Positions 1-5,940 of a stretch of 64,000 nucleotides of DNA are shown here, piece by piece. Made by a program: the position numbers and the translations under genes. The notes under the pieces are model-generated. The model saw nothing but the letters and a program-made list of their open reading frames with translations, was not told the DNA's origin and made no database searches. Source of the DNA: an uncultured Erysipelotrichaceae bacterium (GTDB lineage Bacteria > Bacillota_I > Bacilli_A > RF39 > UBA660); NCBI GenBank assembly GCA_902764145.1, contig CACWUS010000001.1, forward strand, positions 21,678 through 85,677, read 5' to 3'. How positions within the stretch are numbered: the first letter of the stretch is position 1; every line of letters starts with the position of its first letter.

Positions 1-2
1 TA

Positions 3-1484
3 ATGGATGCTATCATAGGAGAATTAGATGATCCAACTGCACAAAAACAAAAATTGTATCATGTTGATTTAACTAATACAGGAAATTTACTCGTATATGG
101 AATTCCTGGATCAGGAAAAGAAAACTTACTTACAACAATGATTACATCATTATGTTTAAATCATACTCCAGAAGAATTAAATATTTATATATTAGATTTT
201 GGAGCTGAAACACTTTCTAAGTTTAAAGACTTTCCTCAAGTAGGAGATGTAGTATTCATAGATGATGAAGAAAGAATAAGTAGTTTATATACATATTTAA
301 CAAAAGAAATTAATAGAAGAAAAACACTATTTACTGATTATTCTGGTTCTTATATAAACTATATAAAAAATAGTGGCAAATCACTTCCAAATATAGTTTG
401 TTTCATACATCAATTTGAAAATATGAATGAAAATTTAAATCCTCTAGCTGAAAAGTTTATAAACTTATTTAAAGAAGGAACAAAATTTGGAATAAACTTT
501 GTAATAACAAATTCACTTATCACTGGAATAAGACTTAAAACAATACAATTATTCCCTAATAAATTAGCACTTAAATTAAATGATAATTCAGATTATAGAT
601 ATGTAGTTGACGCACCAAGAGATTTAATACCAGCCAATCATTTTGGAAGAGGTATCGCAAAACTAGAAAAACCATTAGAATTTCAAACAGCTTATATCTC
701 AAAACCAGATGACATAAATATAACTATTCAGACAATGGTTAATGATTATAAAAAATTAAAGCTTAAAAAAGCACCAAGAATTCCTAGTATGCCAGACTTC
801 TTACTTGTAGATCAATTTATAAATGAAAAATATGATTTAACCAATATACCAATAGGTATTTCTAAAAACAAATTATCTATTTGCACATATGATTTTTCAG
901 TTAATTATACTCCAATACTTACAAATGACTTAAAAGCAAATATGCATTTCATATATGCACTAATTGAATTATTAAAACAAATACCAAATACAAAAATAAG
1001 AATAATAGATGTACTAAAATTATATGAAAATTATCAAGGAATAAAAGTATATAACGAAGACTTTGATACAATAATTAAACAAATCAGAATAGAAGCACTC
1101 GATGATTTAAAAAATGATTACAACAATTTATTCATAATAATTGGATTAGGAGCATTTAAAAATAATGTTCCTGATAAAACACAAAGAACATTCAATTTTG
1201 TATTTGAAGACATTAAAAAATATACAAAAAATAGATTTATTATTTATGATGATTACAATTCTTATAAGAGTTTAGAAGTAGAACCTTGGTTTGTTAAAAA
1301 TATAGACAAATCTACAGGTATATGGTTAGGTGAAAATGCTACTAATCAATTATCAATAAAAATGCCTAACTTATCTCTAGAAGAAAGAAAAATGGTATTT
1401 AGTCAAATCGGTTACATAGTAAAAAATAGCTCACATACAATAATTAGATATGTAGTAGATAAGGAGTTCGATGATGAAAAATAA
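3..1484 (+). CDS. essC: Type VII secretion FtsK/SpoIIIE-family ATPase EssC, C-terminal part (5' end lies outside the window)
   Basis: Walker A GIPGSGKENLL plus a second degenerate P-loop domain. Followed by a YukD-like gene and a WXG100-like gene array. Confidence 0.8.
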   Translation: MDAIIGELDDPTAQKQKLYHVDLTNTGNLLVYGIPGSGKENLLTTMITSLCLNHTPEELNIYILDFGAETLSKFKDFPQVGDVVFIDDEERISSLYTYLTKEINRRKTLFTDYSGSYINYIKNSGKSLPNIVCFIHQFENMNENLNPLAEKFINLFKEGTKFGINFVITNSLITGIRLKTIQLFPNKLALKLNDNSDYRYVVDAPRDLIPANHFGRGIAKLEKPLEFQTAYISKPDDINITIQTMVNDYKKLKLKKAPRIPSMPDFLLVDQFINEKYDLTNIPIGISKNKLSICTYDFSVNYTPILTNDLKANMHFIYALIELLKQIPNTKIRIIDVLKLYENYQGIKVYNEDFDTIIKQIRIEALDDLKNDYNNLFIIIGLGAFKNNVPDKTQRTFNFVFEDIKKYTKNRFIIYDDYNSYKSLEVEPWFVKNIDKSTGIWLGENATNQLSIKMPNLSLEERKMVFSQIGYIVKNSSHTIIRYVVDKEFDDEK

Positions 1485-1728
1485 AGTATTAACAGAAATA
1501 TATGTACCACAACTAGATGAAGAATATGACATATATTTACCATTAAATAAAAACATTGCTAATATTATTGAACTTATTTGTAAAAGCATATCAGAAATAA
1601 AACGTATAGAAAAAATCGATTTTGATAATTATTCATTATATAATAGAGAAACTGGTACAAAATACGCACCAAACAGAATAATAAAAGAAACTGATATAAG
1701 AAATGGATTTAGATTAATAATGATGTAA
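1471..1728 (+). CDS. EsaB/YukD-like ubiquitin-fold T7SS accessory protein
   Basis: 85 aa. YDIYLPLNKNIANIIELI and the C-terminal IRNGFRLIMM resemble S. aureus EsaB (YDLAVPAYLPIKNLIALV ... ADGDILKLL). AAGGAG sits upstream; the start could be 1471 or 1474. Confidence 0.5.
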   Translation: MMKNKVLTEIYVPQLDEEYDIYLPLNKNIANIIELICKSISEIKRIEKIDFDNYSLYNRETGTKYAPNRIIKETDIRNGFRLIMM

Positions 1729-1753
1729 AAAAGACCTAGAAAGGTCTTTTTTT
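1727..1753. terminator. Bidirectional intrinsic terminator between convergent T7SS genes
   Basis: AAAAA-AGACCT-agaa-AGGTCT-TTTTTT. Confidence 0.7.
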
Positions 1754-1782
1754 ATATACAAAAAAAGAATGATAAATCATTC

Positions 1783-2091
1783 TTAATTTACATAAAAATC
1801 CTTAGCAGTTATTTCAGTAGATTCAATTTTAGAAACATCACTACATATATTATCAATAGCATTATTAAAATTATTACTACTATCTTCTATACCATTAATG
1901 ATATTAATACAATCGCCTGCTATATCCTCTACTAAATTTGGAATATTTTTTAAATAACCACCACTATTTAAACTAGGTATATCAAATGAATTAACTATAT
2001 TTTTGGCTTTTCTAACATTAGTAACTGCATTATTAACATTCTTAATAACATTATCTTTTACTTTAGAGGAAACATATAATACATTTGTCAT
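1783..2091 (-). CDS. Small helical protein, last gene of the T7SS substrate-like array
   Basis: 102 aa, N/I/D-rich and helical. Tightly packed with the upstream WXG-like genes. Confidence 0.5.
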   Translation of the reverse strand: MTNVLYVSSKVKDNVIKNVNNAVTNVRKAKNIVNSFDIPSLNSGGYLKNIPNLVEDIAGDCINIINGIEDSSNNFNNAIDNICSDVSKIESTEITAKDFYVN

Positions 2092-2094
2092 AAA

Positions 2095-2367
2095 CTACTT
2101 TTCAGCAGCTGATACAGATTCTATTTCAGAACCAATAGCATATAAAGTATCAACTAATTTAGTTAAAGAATTACCAAAATTAGTATACTTAACCTTATCT
2201 ACAGTTGCTTTTTCTTTATATAAACTTGCTGCCTCTCCTTCCCATCCACTAGTATTTATCACATTATCAAAGAAAGTTTCAACATTGTCATTAACAGCTT
2301 CAACACAAGTACTAAAATTACTAACTAATTCATTATACTTATTAGTATCAACTTTTAATTTACTCAC
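2095..2367 (-). CDS. WXG100-family protein
   Basis: 90 aa with a central W-E-G (TSGWEGEAASLY) between two predicted helices. Confidence 0.65.
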   Translation of the reverse strand: MSKLKVDTNKYNELVSNFSTCVEAVNDNVETFFDNVINTSGWEGEAASLYKEKATVDKVKYTNFGNSLTKLVDTLYAIGSEIESVSAAEK

Positions 2368-2710
2368 TGCCTTTTTCCCTTTCCTTTCTAATTAAATAAT
2401 CATAGTAACCAATGGATCCATCAATACTAGATATTTTGTTATTAATTTCAGGAATTATAGTATTTTGTATCTTACTAATAATACCATTAATCTTAGTTTT
2501 TTGCTTACTAATGTTATTCTTATCAATACCAGAGCCATCAATAGTAAAACTACTACTAACACCAGTATTTGCTAACTCTAAATCATCACATGGTTTACTA
2601 AGACAAGGAATAAGTGAATTATTTAAAGAAGTCTTTAAATTAACATATCTTGCCCTTTCACCATTTAATGATTCTATTTGCCTATAATAATATAATTCAT
2701 TTTCTGTCAT
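2360..2710 (-). CDS. Small coiled-coil protein in the T7SS array (possible YwqH-like chaperone; uncertain)
   Basis: AGGTGA lies 5 nt before the ATG at 2710; the track start at 2719 is a GTG inside that RBS. Overlaps the next gene by 8 nt. Confidence 0.5.
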   Translation of the reverse strand: MTENELYYYRQIESLNGERARYVNLKTSLNNSLIPCLSKPCDDLELANTGVSSSFTIDGSGIDKNNISKQKTKINGIISKIQNTIIPEINNKISSIDGSIGYYDYLIRKEREKGSE

Positions 2711-2722
2711 TATATTCACCTA

Positions 2723-3064
2723 TTAATTCATTTTATTAATATTAACTAAATCACCTTGATCAGCTGGTGCAGCTTCAACAGCAGAAACACCAATAGCTGC
2801 TTGTTGAGATTCATATGCAGCTTTAACTTCCATCAATTTTTCTTTGAATTCATCAAAGTGTCTTACAATTGAATTTATTTGTGCAGCTGTTTCATCAATA
2901 TAGCCATCTATAGTAGCTATTTGTTGTGCACCATAAACTCCATCACTATATTGAATTTCATAAGTTTTAATTCTATTTAAATAATCTTCTACAGTAGTCA
3001 TATAGCTTTCAATAGCAGCTTGCATGTTTGGTATTTCATCATACTTAATTGCCATTGTATCCAT
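2723..3064 (-). CDS. ESAT-6/WXG100-like protein lacking the Trp (VYG in place of WxG)
   Basis: 113 aa helix-turn-helix hairpin pattern (IKYDEIPNMQAAIESY ... DGVYGAQ). AAGGAGTGA RBS. C-terminus is GDLVNINKMN. Confidence 0.6.
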   Translation of the reverse strand: MDTMAIKYDEIPNMQAAIESYMTTVEDYLNRIKTYEIQYSDGVYGAQQIATIDGYIDETAAQINSIVRHFDEFKEKLMEVKAAYESQQAAIGVSAVEAAPADQGDLVNINKMN

Positions 3065-3095
3065 ACAACATCACTCCTTTCTAATATATTAATTA

Positions 3096-3428
3096 TTATC
3101 CTATTAAGTTTTGTTGGAAAGTTTCCCATTGCTCTATTATGCTTTGAGCTTCCTTGCTAACTGCTTGTCTATAATTTTCAATTTTATCTTTTACATCTTG
3201 TGCATGAGTATGAAATTTTTCTAAATAATTTTGGCAGTCAACACCACTCCATCCAGCTTGTAGTGCAGAATCAACTGATGCGTAATTCATAATAGCATCT
3301 TCAGCCTCTTGAATTACTTGATTAAAATTATCTAATGCTGTTTGAACAGCGCTTTTTGTAATACCAGAAGACCAATCTGCTCCTCCGCCTGCACCAAATC
3401 TTTGAATATTTAATTTAATAGTTGACAT
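3096..3428 (-). CDS. WXG100-like protein with an N-terminal KLNIQRFG leader
   Basis: 110 aa with W-S-G (QAGWSGVD). GGGAGGTGA RBS. N-terminus MSTIKLNIQRFGAGGG. Confidence 0.65.
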   Translation of the reverse strand: MSTIKLNIQRFGAGGGADWSSGITKSAVQTALDNFNQVIQEAEDAIMNYASVDSALQAGWSGVDCQNYLEKFHTHAQDVKDKIENYRQAVSKEAQSIIEQWETFQQNLIG

Positions 3429-3741
3429 TTACAAGTTCACCTCCCTCTTCTTTTGATATTTCACTTATTGATATACTTGATTGTTCTTGTTTGAATGATT
3501 CTAATAACTTTTTAAAATCATCTATATATGTTTGTAAATTACTTAAAAACATATCATACTGATCCTCAAATATAGTATATTTGTTTTTTATAGAATCACC
3601 TATTTCTCCTTCAACACTAGATGATATCTTAGAAATCATACTACTAGCATCATTCAAATTCTTAGATATCAAATCATAACTAGCTTGAATGTTTGAAATA
3701 GATGCGAGCAAGTCACTTTCTCTAATTGTAATATTGTCCAT
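3415..3741 (-). CDS. Small helical T7SS-associated protein (first gene of the array)
   Basis: 108 aa. AGGTGA RBS. C-terminus GGELVNVNY. Overlaps the next gene by 14 nt. Confidence 0.55.
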   Translation of the reverse strand: MDNITIRESDLLASISNIQASYDLISKNLNDASSMISKISSSVEGEIGDSIKNKYTIFEDQYDMFLSNLQTYIDDFKKLLESFKQEQSSISISEISKEEGGELVNVNY

Positions 3742-3820: not shown

Positions 3821-3846
3821 AAATAAAAACCATATAAATATGGTTT
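3821..3846 (-). terminator. Intrinsic terminator after htrA
   Basis: AAACCATAT..ATATGGTTT stem followed by TTTTATTTT on the minus strand. Overlaps the stop codon. Confidence 0.6.
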
Positions 3847-4924
3847 ATTCACTTTCACCTAAGGTAATTTTTAATGTTTTATGTTCGGTTCCTCTAATAA
3901 TTTCTATATCAACAGTATCACCTGAATTATATTTAGATAAATAGTATTTTAGTCTAGCTGAATTGCTAACACTATATTCACCTATTTTTACTATTACATC
4001 TCCCTTTACAATTCCAGCTTTACTAGCAGGTCCATTACTTGAAACAGAAAATACTACAACACCTGATATTATAGAGGAATCTATTTTAATACCTTCTCTT
4101 CTTAACATATATGAAGATGTTGCTATATCACCCATACTAATACCTAATAGTGGTCTATTTACTTTTTTACCACTAACTATTTGTTTAGCATAATTCATTG
4201 CTTCTTCAATTGGAATAGCAAATCCAATACCTTCTATTTCAGATTGAACAATCTTCATTGAATTTATACCTATAACTTCTCCACTAACATTACATAATGG
4301 CCCTCCACTATTTCCTGGATTTATAGCTGCATCAGTCTGCATAACATTCATAACCCAATCATTAGTTGTAGAATTGACAGATACCTCTACCATTCTATCT
4401 TTTCCACTTAATATTCCTCTTGTTACTGTACCTGCATAATCAGAACTCATTGGAGATCCAATTGTAAATACAGTGTCTCCTACTTTAGTATTCTCATTAC
4501 TTCCAATTTTGGCCACACTCTTAATATACTTTTTGTCTATTTTTAATATTGCTATATCTGCATACTCATCACTACCAATAACACTACAATCTATGGTTTC
4601 ACCACTCATTAGCATTACTTTAACTTCACTAGCTTTATCAATAACATGATGATTAGTCATAATAAATCCATTTTCATCATAAATAAATCCAGATCCAATA
4701 CCAGCTAATCTAGACTTTTGGTAGTTTTCAACAACCACAACAGAATCATATATATTATCTATTCCATCAGATATACCATTATCATTTACTGTTACGTCTT
4801 TTTGGACTTTAGTAATAATGTTTTTACTTTCAATATCATAATTAGAAATATAATAATACATACAATATGCACCTACACATATTCCAATTAATATTGTTAA
4901 AAAATATATTAATACTTTTTTCAT
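3845..4924 (-). CDS. htrA: Membrane-anchored HtrA/DegP-type serine protease with a PDZ domain
   Basis: Contains GNSGGPL, HHV and DIAIL catalytic-triad context plus a C-terminal PDZ. AGGAGG precedes the ATG at 4924; the track start at 5002 overlaps the upstream gene. Confidence 0.85.
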   Translation of the reverse strand: MKKVLIYFLTILIGICVGAYCMYYYISNYDIESKNIITKVQKDVTVNDNGISDGIDNIYDSVVVVENYQKSRLAGIGSGFIYDENGFIMTNHHVIDKASEVKVMLMSGETIDCSVIGSDEYADIAILKIDKKYIKSVAKIGSNENTKVGDTVFTIGSPMSSDYAGTVTRGILSGKDRMVEVSVNSTTNDWVMNVMQTDAAINPGNSGGPLCNVSGEVIGINSMKIVQSEIEGIGFAIPIEEAMNYAKQIVSGKKVNRPLLGISMGDIATSSYMLRREGIKIDSSIISGVVVFSVSSNGPASKAGIVKGDVIVKIGEYSVSNSARLKYYLSKYNSGDTVDIEIIRGTEHKTLKITLGESE

Positions 4925-4931
4925 AAGCCTC

Positions 4932-5864
4932 CTATGACAAGTAAGATATTTGTTTATAGTTATCTGGGAATCCCATTCTATATAATACTTTTTGAACATC
5001 AATAGATTTTAATTTAGATGATAACCAATCAATTTCATAATCTATTTCATTCATCATCATTTTAAAATCACTATAAGTTAACATATGCTTTAATATTATG
5101 ATTAATGCAAAAATATCATGCTTTCCATAAATATATTCATCATCAACTTTAGGAATATCTAATTCAGCATGGAATTTAGTATCACTAATAGCTTTTTGCG
5201 TTTCATGGTTATATAAAATATCTTCATGAGCACATAAATTCCTATAATTAGACAAAATAGCCAAATAATCTCCAAGTGACTCTGAATCAATATTAGTGTA
5301 ATAAGAAGCAATTTCTTCCTTATCTTCTTGTTTTAATATAGTAAATAATTCTCCCATTAATCCAAAACTTAATACTTTAACACCTACCCAAAGAGGTATA
5401 TATCCATAATTATTAATATAATGACTTGTAGCTGCATGTTGATATCCATTTATTCTAATTTGCCTTTTAAGTTTTCTAATTAAATCATTTATTTGTCTAC
5501 TTTTTTCCTTATTTCTATCAAAATTATCCACATTTAAATAATCTTTTTCTTTATAACCATACTTTTTACTTAAAACATAACTAAATATAGACTTATAGTT
5601 ATTTTCAACAATAAGTAAGTTTTTAAAAATAATATTTCTAAAATATCTATCAAATTTAAAAAGTGAATGTAATTCTTCGAAAGTTGAACCATCAATAAAT
5701 CTTTTAGAACCAGTCACTAAAAAAGGAGATCTATAGCCATTTAAAAAGAAATAGTTTTCTCTTAACAATACTTCTTTTGCACTATCATAATCTTCAATTG
5801 TAAGACCTTTGCTTTTTAAAATGTCCAATTGTTCTTCAATTGTTTTAAAAACCTTTGCTGCCAT
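4932..5864 (-). CDS. Abi_2 (AbiD/AbiF-like) abortive-infection family protein
   Basis: The N-terminus MAAKVFKTIEEQLDILKSKGLTIED..LLRENYFFLNGY is typical of the Abi_2 family. AGGAGAG RBS precedes the ATG at 5864. A possible promoter is TTTTAA-17-TATAAT at 5888-5916. Confidence 0.7.
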   Translation of the reverse strand: MAAKVFKTIEEQLDILKSKGLTIEDYDSAKEVLLRENYFFLNGYRSPFLVTGSKRFIDGSTFEELHSLFKFDRYFRNIIFKNLLIVENNYKSIFSYVLSKKYGYKEKDYLNVDNFDRNKEKSRQINDLIRKLKRQIRINGYQHAATSHYINNYGYIPLWVGVKVLSFGLMGELFTILKQEDKEEIASYYTNIDSESLGDYLAILSNYRNLCAHEDILYNHETQKAISDTKFHAELDIPKVDDEYIYGKHDIFALIIILKHMLTYSDFKMMMNEIDYEIDWLSSKLKSIDVQKVLYRMGFPDNYKQISYLS

Positions 5865-5940
5865 TAGACCCACTCTCCTATGTTAAGATTATATCATTTT
5901 TATATTAATTTTAAAACACATTTTTTGTAATTTAACACAT

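What the first reader, a model, noticed from the sequence alone, without database searches (positions are those of the whole stretch)
3096..3428. WXG100-like protein carrying an N-terminal leader resembling the Prp-cleaved extension of ribosomal protein L27 and phage capsid proteins
What is seen: the protein begins MSTIKLNIQRFG-AGGGADW and then continues as a WXG100-like helical hairpin (QAGWSGVD).

Background: Firmicute L27 starts with an extension of the form M-x-K-(L/M)-N-L-Q-x-F-A, which the cysteine protease Prp removes just after FA. Staphylococcal phage capsid and scaffold proteins use the same KLNLQxFA signal.

Interpretation: KLNIQRFG followed by a Gly-rich linker closely mimics that signal. 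I know of no type VII substrate processed this way. It would imply proteolytic maturation of a T7SS-associated protein by a ribosome- or phage-linked protease. Alternatively, the gene could be a phage-derived module recruited into the locus.
Basis: partly seen in the sequence, partly recalled or inferred. Interest (0 to 1): 0.65.

Follow-up and report, generated by a model that had tools for sequence, protein, structure and literature searches.

The report
Secreted WXG100-like protein with Prp-type leader
A small protein made for export by a type VII secretion system starts with the same 11-residue leader that the protease Prp removes from ribosomal protein L27 and from phage structural proteins, which makes it a candidate for the first non-ribosomal cellular substrate of that protease.

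Summary

- **The gene.** It lies on the minus strand (3096..3428). A GGAGGTG ribosome-binding site sits 9 nt upstream. It encodes MSTIKLNIQRF|GAGGGADW followed by a confidently modelled WXG100 helical hairpin.
- **The setting.** It sits in a conserved minimal T7SSb-like cluster: EssC, a YukD-like protein and six small helical proteins.
- **The family.** An exhaustive search found a rare family of about 30 cluster representatives. About 18 carry the leader and about 11 syntenic relatives genuinely lack it. Across 20 leader-bearing sequences, P3 Gln and P1 Phe are invariant, which are the Prp-critical positions; P2 varies.
- **The same leader elsewhere.** The codon pattern for KLNIQxF[G/A] recurs as an N-terminal leader in low-GC contigs. 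It occurs on phage head, scaffold and tail proteins, one with the identical octapeptide KLNIQRFG. It occurs on L27 in rplU-prp-rpmA operons, eight with the identical heptapeptide KLNIQRF. Unexpectedly, it also occurs on bL32 and on a YebC-like protein.
- **Prior work.** No paper I found links Prp to type VII secretion.
- **Limits.** The prp and L27 genes of this genome could not be retrieved. Cleavage itself is untested.

Best explanation: Prp cleaves between F11 and G12 in the cytoplasm before export (confidence about 0.6).

The parts
3096..3428 (-). Gene for the 110-aa pro-form of a WXG100-like T7SS small protein (leader, Gly-rich linker, helical hairpin).
   Evidence: ORF and translation. 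One member per T7SS cluster by family HMM. AlphaFold hairpin and Foldseek hits to EsxB/EsxA.
3396..3428 (-). Leader, residues 1-11 (MSTIKLNIQRF). The Prp-type recognition sequence occupies P7-P1 = KLNIQRF. The predicted scissile bond is F11|G12.
   Evidence: Motif conserved in 20 family sequences, with Q and F invariant. Identical heptapeptide in L27 of 8 low-GC operons. Identical octapeptide in a phage protein of L022. Prp determinants from PMC9261936.
3372..3395 (-). Gly-rich flexible linker, residues 12-19 (GAGGGADW). It would become the N-terminus of the mature protein.
   Evidence: pLDDT below 50 for residues 12-19. Length and sequence vary but stay Gly-rich across the family. Leaderless homologues start within this stretch of the alignment.
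3243..3251 (-). WxG turn (W60-S61-G62) between the two helices.
   Evidence: W60, G62 and D64 are invariant in 29 sequences. The turn lies between helices 50-59 and 63-108.
3096..3128 (-). Conserved C-terminal tail (QWETFQQNLIG, plus the stop codon). W101, F104 and Q105 are conserved. It is a candidate export signal next to the N-terminus in the hairpin.
   Evidence: W101 and F104 are invariant and Q105 is at least 90% conserved. The export-signal role is inferred.
3438..3444 (-). Shine-Dalgarno sequence GGAGGTG, 9 nt upstream of the ATG.
   Evidence: A GGAGGTG-type Shine-Dalgarno sequence (weaker, GGGAGAG, in L012) lies the same distance before the start in all seven family loci aligned.
3415..3741 (-). 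Upstream partner gene, 108 aa, helical and weakly LXG/ESAT-6-like, ending ..GGELVNVNY. Its stop overlaps the target's start by 14 nt, which suggests translational coupling.
   Evidence: The same arrangement occurs in L001, L010, L013 and L009.
1783..3064 (-). Four further small helical genes of the same operon (113, 119/116, 90 and 102 aa). Two give weak WXG100 hits.
   Evidence: Syntenic in all related loci.
1471..1728 (+). YukD/EsaB-like 85-aa gene, convergent with the small-protein operon. The match is weak.
   Evidence: Pfam YukD E = 0.2 only. Position and size are conserved next to essC in all loci.
3..1484 (+). 3' part of essC (FtsK/SpoIIIE T7SS ATPase). The full gene encodes 1532-1540 aa in related contigs.
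   Evidence: TIGR03928 EssC E = 5.9e-62 and Pfam FtsK_SpoIIIE. Full length seen in L003, L010, L011 and L040.

Best explanation
The gene encodes the precursor of a WXG100-like substrate or accessory protein of a minimal T7SSb-like system in an uncultured, very low-GC member of the Bacilli.

Proposed sequence of events:
1. The first 11 residues (MSTIKLNIQRF) are a propeptide of the L27/phage type.
2. The cytoplasmic cysteine protease Prp, encoded between rplU and rpmA, binds K-L-N-I-Q-R-F. It buries P1 Phe and P3 Gln and cuts between F11 and G12.
3. This leaves a 99-residue protein with a flexible Gly-rich N-terminus. That product is co-linear with the naturally leaderless members of the family.
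4. The mature hairpin then pairs with its operon partners and is exported through EssC.

Shown here:
- the translated, conserved, modular leader;
- its identity to real L27 and phage leaders from similar organisms;
- the WXG100 fold;
- the T7SS context.

Inferred, not shown:
- that this organism has Prp and a matching L27 leader;
- that cleavage happens;
- that the leader delays partner binding or EssC recognition until it is removed. In the hairpin the N-terminus lies beside the conserved C-terminal tail.
For: 1. The leader is real and under selection. A GGAGGTG-type Shine-Dalgarno sequence lies before it in all seven family loci aligned. There are synonymous differences inside it and no alternative start.
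2. The family is real. Exhaustive phmmer gave 30 hits, one of them spurious. About 18 members carry the leader. About 11 more distant members lack it, and one of those (P0034) has stop codons just upstream of its ATG.
3. Across 20 leader-bearing sequences: P3 Q 20/20, P1 F 20/20, P6 L/F 20/20, P5 N/D/E, P4 I/L/T, P1' small (G/S/A/N). Only P2 is free. These are the positions that structure and mutagenesis show to matter for Prp. P3 Gln to Ala or Glu is uncleaved, P1-P3 are the main determinants, and P1' must be small (PMC9261936). P1 Phe to Ala is uncleaved (2026 preprint).
4. Exact-pattern scans for KLNIQxF[G/A]:
   - In viral contigs, 22 of 25 hits are N-terminal leaders of major head, scaffold, major tail and tail proteins. 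They include MIKLNIQRFG... and several other F|G sites.
   - In metagenomes, about 80 of 121 hits are N-terminal.
   - 18 of those hits are L27, and 8 of them read KLNIQRF|A. All 17 with upstream DNA lie in rplU-prp-rpmA operons, and in the 12 Prp sequences aligned the His/Cys dyad is intact.
5. The leader and linker are disordered, so accessible (pLDDT below 50). As in L27, a flexible stretch follows the site.
6. Cutting at F|G gives an N-terminus co-linear with the leaderless homologues.
7. A YebC-like protein (MKLNIQLF|GRAYEVRK) and bL32 (MKLNIQLF|AVPFRK) show the leader placed exactly in front of canonical mature N-termini, once with Gly at P1'.
8. The named Prp relatives from these contigs are from 'Bacilli bacterium' and 'Mollicutes bacterium' MAGs. 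The closest named relative of the target locus carries the same label.
Against: - The prp and L27 genes of this genome were not seen. They are absent from the window and from 10-kb flanks, and the species is not in the genome collection.
- Prp enzymes are reported to be tightly co-adapted to their own L27. C. difficile Prp does not cut an S. aureus-type peptide. A match to L27 of other low-GC organisms is therefore suggestive, not proof.
- P2 is Arg here, whereas the structurally studied S. aureus Prp buries Phe at P2.
- P1' is Gly, whereas L27 always has Ala or Ser.
- No cleavage data exist.
- No known T7SS substrate needs N-terminal processing.
- Some family members do without the leader, so it is not essential for the core function.
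- Degenerate leaders exist (P0011, P0025, P0023).
Confidence: 0.6

Rival explanations
1. The leader is a functional but uncleaved N-terminal extension, for example a short strand that docks onto an operon partner, YukD or EssC. Its likeness to the Prp site would then be convergence or a historical leftover.
For: - The leader is dispensable in part of the family.
- P2 and P1' differ from the L27 consensus.
- Degenerate versions persist in some lineages.
- No cleavage evidence exists.
Against: - The invariant positions are exactly those Prp needs (Q at P3, F at P1), along with hydrophobic P4/P6 and small P1'.
- The identical hepta- and octapeptides serve as leaders on L27 and on phage proteins in organisms of the same GC range.
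- The relaxed motif is expected at an N-terminus in about 1e-5 of proteins.
Confidence: 0.15
2. The leader is removed by a different protease. Candidates are the transglutaminase-like (DUF553) Cys-His protein encoded beside essC, the membrane-anchored HtrA-like protease next to the operon, or an Rrp-like alternative L27 protease.
For: - A DUF553 transglutaminase-like protein flanks essC in three of the four clusters whose essC-distal flank could be read. Pfam E = 3e-7 and 2e-6, above the cut-off, in L010 and L011.
- HtrA lies directly upstream in the window, in L003-L008 and in L013/L014.
- A second L27-processing protease exists in S. pneumoniae TIGR4.
Against: - The DUF553 protein is also present in the leaderless cluster L011, so it does not track the leader.
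- It is absent beside essC in the leaderless cluster L040.
- HtrA is extracytoplasmic and has no such sequence specificity. It is missing from L001 and L010.
- The motif is the Prp motif and is shared with proteins encoded nowhere near these proteases.
Confidence: 0.1
3. The leader is a Prp decoy or inhibitor, not a substrate to be matured. One version has it competing with phage capsid precursors or pre-L27 in the producer. Another has it delivered by the T7SS into a rival Firmicute to block that cell's essential Prp.
For: - T7SSb systems mediate interbacterial antagonism (established knowledge).
- Prp is described as essential in Firmicutes (PMC9261936 abstract).
- P2 and P1' deviate from L27.
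- An Abi_2 gene lies nearby in the window.
Against: - There is no toxin domain.
- A stoichiometric peptide decoy is an inefficient inhibitor.
- Phage proteins with the same F|G and P2 Arg/Lys variants are presumably real substrates.
- The Abi_2 neighbour is not seen in the more distant related clusters (L001, L010, L011, L013, L040).
Confidence: 0.07
4. The start codon is mis-called and the leader is not translated.
For: None beyond the general risk of start mis-annotation. The first five codons overlap the upstream gene.
Against: - A strong Shine-Dalgarno sequence lies at the right distance, with no alternative start before Met47.
- Amino-acid conservation with synonymous changes extends downstream of the 14-nt overlap.
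Confidence: 0.02

Closest known systems
WXG100 / EsxA-EsxB family of T7SS substrates (Pfam PF06013, TIGR03930)
   Same: - About 100 residues in a helix-turn-helix hairpin with W-x-G at the turn.
- A conserved C-terminal tail.
- Encoded beside EssC with other small helical proteins.
- Best structural matches are B. anthracis EsxB, S. agalactiae and S. aureus EsxA, and CFP-10/ESAT-6.
   Different: - Sequence scores fall below the family cut-offs.
- It forms a separate rare family of about 30 cluster representatives.
- It carries an N-terminal 11-residue leader plus a Gly-rich linker, which no described WXG100 protein has.
N-terminal extension of ribosomal protein bL27, removed by Prp (S. aureus, S. 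pneumoniae; PMC9405229, PMC9261936, PMC12324487)
   Same: - Position at the extreme N-terminus, 11 residues here against 8-16 in L27.
- Same motif: K-L-(N/D)-(L/I)-Q-x-F followed by a small residue.
- The heptapeptide KLNIQRF is identical to L27 of 8 low-GC metagenomic operons.
- A flexible segment follows the site.
   Different: - The cargo is a secretion-system protein, not a ribosomal protein.
- P1' is Gly, Ser or Asn more often than Ala.
- P2 is often Lys or Arg.
- The leader is optional within the family, whereas it is described as essential for L27 function.
Leaders of phage 80alpha scaffold gp46 and capsid gp47, cleaved by host Prp
   Same: - Same motif class (KFNLQFF|A, KLNLQHF|A).
- In low-GC phage contigs the exact KLNIQxF[G/A] leader sits on head, scaffold and tail proteins, including KLNIQRFG.
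   Different: - The body of the protein has no phage homologue.
- The gene is in a chromosomal T7SS cluster, not a prophage.
Proposed Prp site at the N-terminus of Firmicute and spirochete FlhB (PMC9405229)
   Same: A secretion-apparatus protein carrying an L27-like N-terminal motif. It is proposed from sequence only.
   Different: FlhB is a membrane component of the flagellar type III export gate. Here the carrier is a soluble T7SS substrate-like protein, and the motif match is much closer.
Double-glycine leaders removed by C39-peptidase ABC transporters
   Same: A short N-terminal leader followed by glycines on a small exported protein.
   Different: - The consensus is different (LSxxELxxIxGG against KLNIQxF|G).
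- The glycines here follow the conserved Phe and vary in number.
- No C39 ABC transporter was seen among the called genes of the locus or its 10-kb flanks.

Membership tests
WXG100 superfamily (T7SS small substrates) | About 100-residue helical hairpin with a W-x-G turn. | tested here: met
   AlphaFold pLDDT 84, helices 25-59 and 63-108, W60-S-G62 at the turn. W60 and G62 invariant. Foldseek top hits are EsxB/EsxA.
WXG100 superfamily (T7SS small substrates) | Score above the curated threshold of PF06013 / TIGR03930. | tested here: not met
   17.5 bits against a 27.3 cut-off (Pfam). 17.2 bits against 44.85 (NCBIfam). It is a divergent relative, not a member of the curated family.
WXG100 superfamily (T7SS small substrates) | Encoded next to an EssC/EccC FtsK-SpoIIIE ATPase. 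| tested here: met
   EssC (TIGR03928, E = 5.9e-62) lies 1.6 kb away. The synteny holds wherever the contig reaches essC.
WXG100 superfamily (T7SS small substrates) | Actually secreted through the T7SS. | not testable with these tools
   Needs a secretome comparison of wild type against an essC mutant.
Prp substrates (L27-type N-terminal propeptide) | Motif at the extreme N-terminus: hydrophobic P6 and P4, N/D at P5, Q at P3, F at P1, small P1'. | tested here: met
   K5-L-N-I-Q-R-F11|G12. Q and F are invariant in 20 family sequences. Requirements taken from PMC9261936 and the 2026 preprint.
Prp substrates (L27-type N-terminal propeptide) | Hydrophobic or aromatic P2 (F, L or H in studied substrates). 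| tested here: inconclusive
   P2 is Arg here. However, L27 of 8 low-GC rplU-prp-rpmA operons also has Arg at P2 (KLNIQRF|A), and phage leaders have R, K, M, H or Y.
Prp substrates (L27-type N-terminal propeptide) | prp present in the same genome, with a matching L27 leader. | not testable with these tools
   Absent from the window and 10-kb flanks. The species is absent from the genome collection. Attempts to link by accession and by sample failed. All 17 comparable low-GC L27 loci have prp.
Prp substrates (L27-type N-terminal propeptide) | Cleavage at the predicted bond. | not testable with these tools
   Needs mass spectrometry or an in vitro assay.
T7SSb (Firmicute type VII secretion system) | The full core set: EssC, EsaB/YukD, and the membrane components EssA, EssB and EsaA. 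| tested here: inconclusive
   EssC is clear. YukD is only weak (E = 0.2). No EssA, EssB or EsaA domain appears on any called gene within 10 kb in four cluster types. They could be elsewhere or too divergent to detect.
Phage structural protein with Prp-type leader | Homology of the protein body to a phage head, scaffold or tail family, or a prophage context. | tested here: not met
   No significant tblastn hit in 50,697 phage records (best E = 0.6). The neighbours are housekeeping genes and the cluster is syntenic across species.
Double-glycine (C39) leader peptides | The LSxxELxxIxGG consensus and an adjacent C39-ABC transporter. | tested here: not met
   The leader sequence does not fit. No such transporter was seen among the called genes of the locus or its flanks.

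The most novel reading that the evidence does not exclude
In a clade of uncultured, very low-GC Bacilli and Mollicutes-like bacteria, the Prp leader may be a portable maturation tag. It would be used well beyond L27: on a T7SS WXG100-like protein, on ribosomal protein bL32 and on a YebC-family regulator, as well as on phage head and tail proteins. Prp would then be a general pro-protein convertase that ties secretion-substrate maturation to the ribosome-assembly protease. This family would be its first secretion-related substrate.
Probability: 0.45. Interest if true: 0.8.

Novelty: new variant of a known kind. Interest (0 to 1): 0.64.

Why it matters
Prp is described as essential in Firmicutes and is being pursued as an antibiotic target. 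The groups working on it state that it is unknown whether it has any cellular substrate other than L27 (PMC12324487). This family offers a concrete candidate that can be tested by cloning, and bL32 and YebC offer two more.

For type VII secretion it would be the first substrate made as a precursor with an N-terminal propeptide. That raises the question of whether processing gates partner binding or recognition by EssC.

The natural pairs of leader-bearing and leaderless homologues in otherwise identical clusters provide a ready-made comparison.

Tried and rejected
1. **L27, Prp and L21 in the window and T7SS loci.** tblastn and an HMM search of the window and all T7SS loci found none.
2. **Genome collection.** The single-protein scan found only one relative, a 'Bacilli bacterium' MAG at 60% identity, and not the window's own species.
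3. **Linking a Prp to the same MAG or species.** The accession-number route failed because accessions are mostly not held. The sample co-occurrence route gave no shared samples (P0104). Shared flanking genes between the L27 loci and the window gave no orthologues.
4. **Word-index homology search.** It found only 2 and then 8 relatives. The exhaustive search was needed.
5. **Crude PSSM from published L27 leaders.** It penalises P2 Arg and P1' Gly, so the target scored only about 7.5 bits, no better than the best background ORF start. I replaced it with the direct pattern scans.
6. **Phage origin of the gene body.** Rejected.
7. **Double-glycine leader.** Rejected on sequence and context.
8. **Promoter and terminator scan of the operon.** Uninformative.
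9. **P0017 (1303 aa).** It is a spurious FN3-repeat hit to the linker region.
10. **Pattern hits inside MoaD, transaldolase, Prs and AAA ATPases.** These are native strands, not leaders.

Full report
**What is at the coordinates**

The ORF 3096..3428 is on the minus strand and encodes 110 residues:

MSTIKLNIQRFGAGGGADWSSGITKSAVQTALDNFNQVIQEAEDAIMNYASVDSALQAGWSGVDCQNYLEKFHTHAQDVKDKIENYRQAVSKEAQSIIEQWETFQQNLIG.

- A GGAGGTG Shine-Dalgarno sequence lies 9 nt upstream of the ATG, at 3438..3444.
- No other start codon occurs in the first 25 codons, and the next Met is residue 47. A downstream start would therefore delete helix 1.
- The start overlaps the stop of the upstream 108-aa gene by 14 nt.
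- The window is 24.2% GC and chromosomal. It carries rplM-rpsI at 7.9-8.8 kb and, by my reading of the ORF list rather than a family search, a dnaA-dnaN-recF-gyrBA-type run of ORFs at 45-54 kb.

**Context**

- The window begins inside essC (TIGR03928, E = 5.9e-62), followed by a small YukD-like gene.
- Convergent with these is an operon of six small helical proteins (108, 110, 113, 119, 90 and 102 aa). The target is the second.
- An HtrA-like protease gene and an Abi_2 gene follow.
- Contigs of the same species and of five more distant relatives show the same layout with a full-length EssC of about 1535 aa.
- In three of the four cluster types whose essC-distal flank could be read, a 174-190-aa transglutaminase-like (DUF553) protein lies beside essC. 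L040 has a 622-aa protein there instead.
- No EssA, EssB or EsaA domain appears within 10 kb.
- A family HMM finds exactly one member per cluster.

**Fold**

- With the 29-sequence family alignment, AlphaFold gives mean pLDDT 84. Helices span 25-47, 50-59 and 63-108, joined at W60-S-G62. Residues 1-7 and 12-19 have pLDDT below 50.
- Most of the first 30-odd Foldseek PDB matches are Esx/WXG100 or PE proteins. B. anthracis EsxB gives probability 0.99 and target-normalised TM-scores of 0.6-0.74. E-values are weak, as expected for a two-helix fold.
- Pfam and NCBIfam WXG100 models hit below their cut-offs.
- The protein is therefore WXG100-like in fold, motif and context, but it is not a member of the curated family.

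**The family and the modular leader**

- The word-index search found one relative. The exhaustive phmmer search of 1.84 billion representatives found 30, one of them spurious.
- About 18 carry the leader. Examples:
  - MSNIKFNLQMF|AGG
  - MSTGIKLNIQMF|ASW
  - MESIKINLNIQRF|ANE
  - MSKFKLNIQLF|GDGG
  - MESKMEFNIQKF|AEG
- About 11 more distant members begin 8-10 residues before the conserved xGV(S/T) box and have no leader.
- One leaderless member, P0034, lies in the same kind of cluster. It has its own Shine-Dalgarno sequence and stop codons upstream.
- A few members have decayed leaders: MNLNIVMYSEGG and MSKGSSGGNLNIQSTTHG.
- Residue counts over 20 leader-bearing sequences:

| Position | Residues |
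|---|---|
| P7 | K 15/20 |
| P6 | L/F 20/20 |
| P5 | N 12, D 6, E 2 |
| P4 | I 16, L 3, T 1 |
| P3 | Q 20/20 |
| P2 | K 7, L 6, R 3, M 2, I 1, Y 1 |
| P1 | F 20/20 |
| P1' | G 10, S 5, A 4, N 1 |

- Codon alignments show synonymous differences within the leader.
- Cutting after the Phe gives an N-terminus co-linear with the leaderless homologues.

**What Prp needs**

- The published L27 motif is MLxx(D/N)LQ(F/L)F'A(S/H)KK. Real L27 leaders with Ile at P4 exist, as in Erysipelothrix, Fusobacterium and T. lettingae.
- The S. aureus Prp-peptide structure shows that P1-P3 are the main determinants. The P3 Gln is buried and essential, and Q to A or E is not cleaved. The P5 Asn makes an intrapeptide hydrogen bond, P4 and P6 are hydrophobic contacts, and P1' must be small.
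- P1 Phe to Ala abolishes Prp cleavage in S. pneumoniae.
- The family conserves exactly these positions and varies at P2.

**Does this exact leader exist on accepted substrates?**

I scanned two collections for the AT-rich codon pattern AAATTAAATATTCAANNNTTYGS, which encodes KLNIQxF[G/A].

*Viral contigs (IMG/VR).*
- 22 of 25 hits lie within a few codons of a start codon, most with an obvious Shine-Dalgarno sequence, in contigs of 26-36% GC.
- PHROGs assigns them to major head, head scaffolding, major tail, tail and tail-needle families.
- Variants include KLNIQLFG, KLNIQFFG and KLNIQ[K/M/R/H/Y]FA. L022 has MIKLNIQRFG..., the same octapeptide as the target.

*Metagenome contigs.*
- The scan stopped at its 120-locus limit. 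About 80 of 121 matches are N-terminal.
- 18 are L27. Eight of these read ...KLNIQRF|A(H/Q/R)(K/V)K..., identical to the target from P7 to P1, in contigs of 22-28% GC.
- All 17 L27 loci with upstream sequence have rplU-prp-rpmA, and in the 12 Prp sequences aligned the GH...GKDIVCA dyad is intact.
- The named relatives of these Prp proteins come from 'Bacilli bacterium' and 'Mollicutes bacterium' MAGs. The one named relative of the target locus carries the same label.

Arg at P2 and Gly at P1', the two features that looked atypical, therefore both occur in leaders of this class from organisms of the same composition.

**Unexpected by-product**

- About 24 hits are ribosomal protein bL32 reading MKLNIQLF|AVPFRK.... 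The Pfam L32 model starts exactly at the Ala.
- One hit is a YebC/TACO1 protein reading MKLNIQLF|GRAYEVRK....
- In both, the leader precedes the canonical mature N-terminus.
- I found no paper on either.
- This suggests the leader is portable among cellular proteins in this clade, which makes a T7SS carrier less of an oddity.

**What could not be done**

- rplU-prp-rpmA is not in the window or in any 10-kb flank.
- The species is not in the genome collection.
- Attempts to tie a Prp to the same MAG or the same samples failed.
- Because Prp enzymes are reported to be narrowly adapted to their own L27, the same-genome comparison remains the key missing test.
- Cleavage itself is untested.

**Literature**

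- No paper in the library joins Prp with WXG100 or type VII secretion.
- A 2022 review proposes FlhB as a possible second substrate, from sequence alone.
- A 2025 preprint states that it is unclear whether Prp acts on other substrates, and that none could be found in S. pneumoniae.

**Conclusion**

- The reading that best fits is a Prp-type propeptide, cut at F11|G12, on a divergent WXG100-like protein of a minimal T7SSb-like cluster (confidence about 0.6).
- The rivals are:
  - an uncleaved functional extension (0.15);
  - cleavage by another protease, such as the cluster's transglutaminase-like protein or HtrA (0.10);
  - a Prp decoy (0.07);
  - a mis-called start (0.02).
- It is a new variant of known kinds, a WXG100 substrate combined with a Prp leader. 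It has moderate to high interest because it gives a testable answer to an open question about Prp substrates and adds a processing step to T7SS biology.

Noticed in passing
L043:493-699(-), L097:1475-1678(+), L118:767-976(-), L144:7967-8176(-), and about 20 more of L041-L160: Ribosomal protein bL32 carries the same leader (MKLNIQLF|AVPFRKVSKT...) in many low-GC (24-31%) metagenome contigs. The Pfam L32 model begins exactly at the Ala after the Phe. I found no publication on an L32 propeptide or on its processing by Prp.
   Followed up: partly
L115:1-248(-): A YebC/TACO1-family protein starts MKLNIQLF|GRAYEVRK..., which places the leader in front of the canonical mature N-terminus with Gly at P1'. 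The contig is 23% GC.
   Followed up: partly
L015-L039 (for example L017:4322-5326(-), L020:11277-11927(-), L026:8984-9460(-), L016:11575-13755(+), L022:6591-7466(+)): In low-GC phage contigs the KLNIQxF[A/G] leader is on major tail, tail and tail-needle-like proteins, not only on head and scaffold proteins. This is a wider use than the capsid and scaffold cases described for 80alpha. No prp homologue lies in the retrieved phage regions.
   Followed up: partly
Just left of window coordinate 1: L003:16585-17157(-), L010:8784-9350(-), L011:17438-17962(-): A 174-190-aa transglutaminase-like (DUF553) protein with a GNCWE...H motif lies directly beside essC in three of the four cluster types whose flank could be read, with or without a leader on the WXG protein. 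It may be a cysteine protease or transglutaminase component of this T7SS variant.
   Followed up: partly
Window 1..3741 and L003, L010, L011, L040: The T7SS cluster looks minimal: EssC, a YukD-like gene, usually the DUF553 protein, and six small helical proteins. No EssA, EssB or EsaA domain is detectable within 10 kb.
   Followed up: partly
Window 3415-3447(-), 2723-2758(-), 1783-1806(-): Three of the operon's small proteins end in related tails: ..EEGGELVNVNY, ..DQGDLVNINKMN and ..AKDFYVN. The target family ends ..FQxxN(V/L)I(S/G). This may be a shared export signal.
   Followed up: no
Window 3845-5002(-); L013:2023-3156(+); L010:168-1538(+): A membrane-anchored HtrA-like S1C protease, or in L010 and L013 an M14 carboxypeptidase, lies directly upstream of the small-protein operon in several leader-bearing clusters. 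Neither was seen in the two leaderless clusters examined (L011, L040). The sample is too small to call this a correlation.
   Followed up: no
P0011, P0023, P0025 (family members): Decayed leaders occur: MNLNIVMYSEGG (Q to V, F to Y), MSKGSSGGNLNIQSTTHG (Phe lost) and MGLNKIINGIKDLVEFG. This indicates repeated loss of the leader within the family.
   Followed up: no
Window 4932-5873(-): An Abi_2 (abortive-infection-like) gene sits between the HtrA-like gene and acetyltransferase genes, next to the T7SS cluster. It recurs in the contigs of the same species (L003-L008) but was not seen beside the clusters of the more distant relatives.
   Followed up: no
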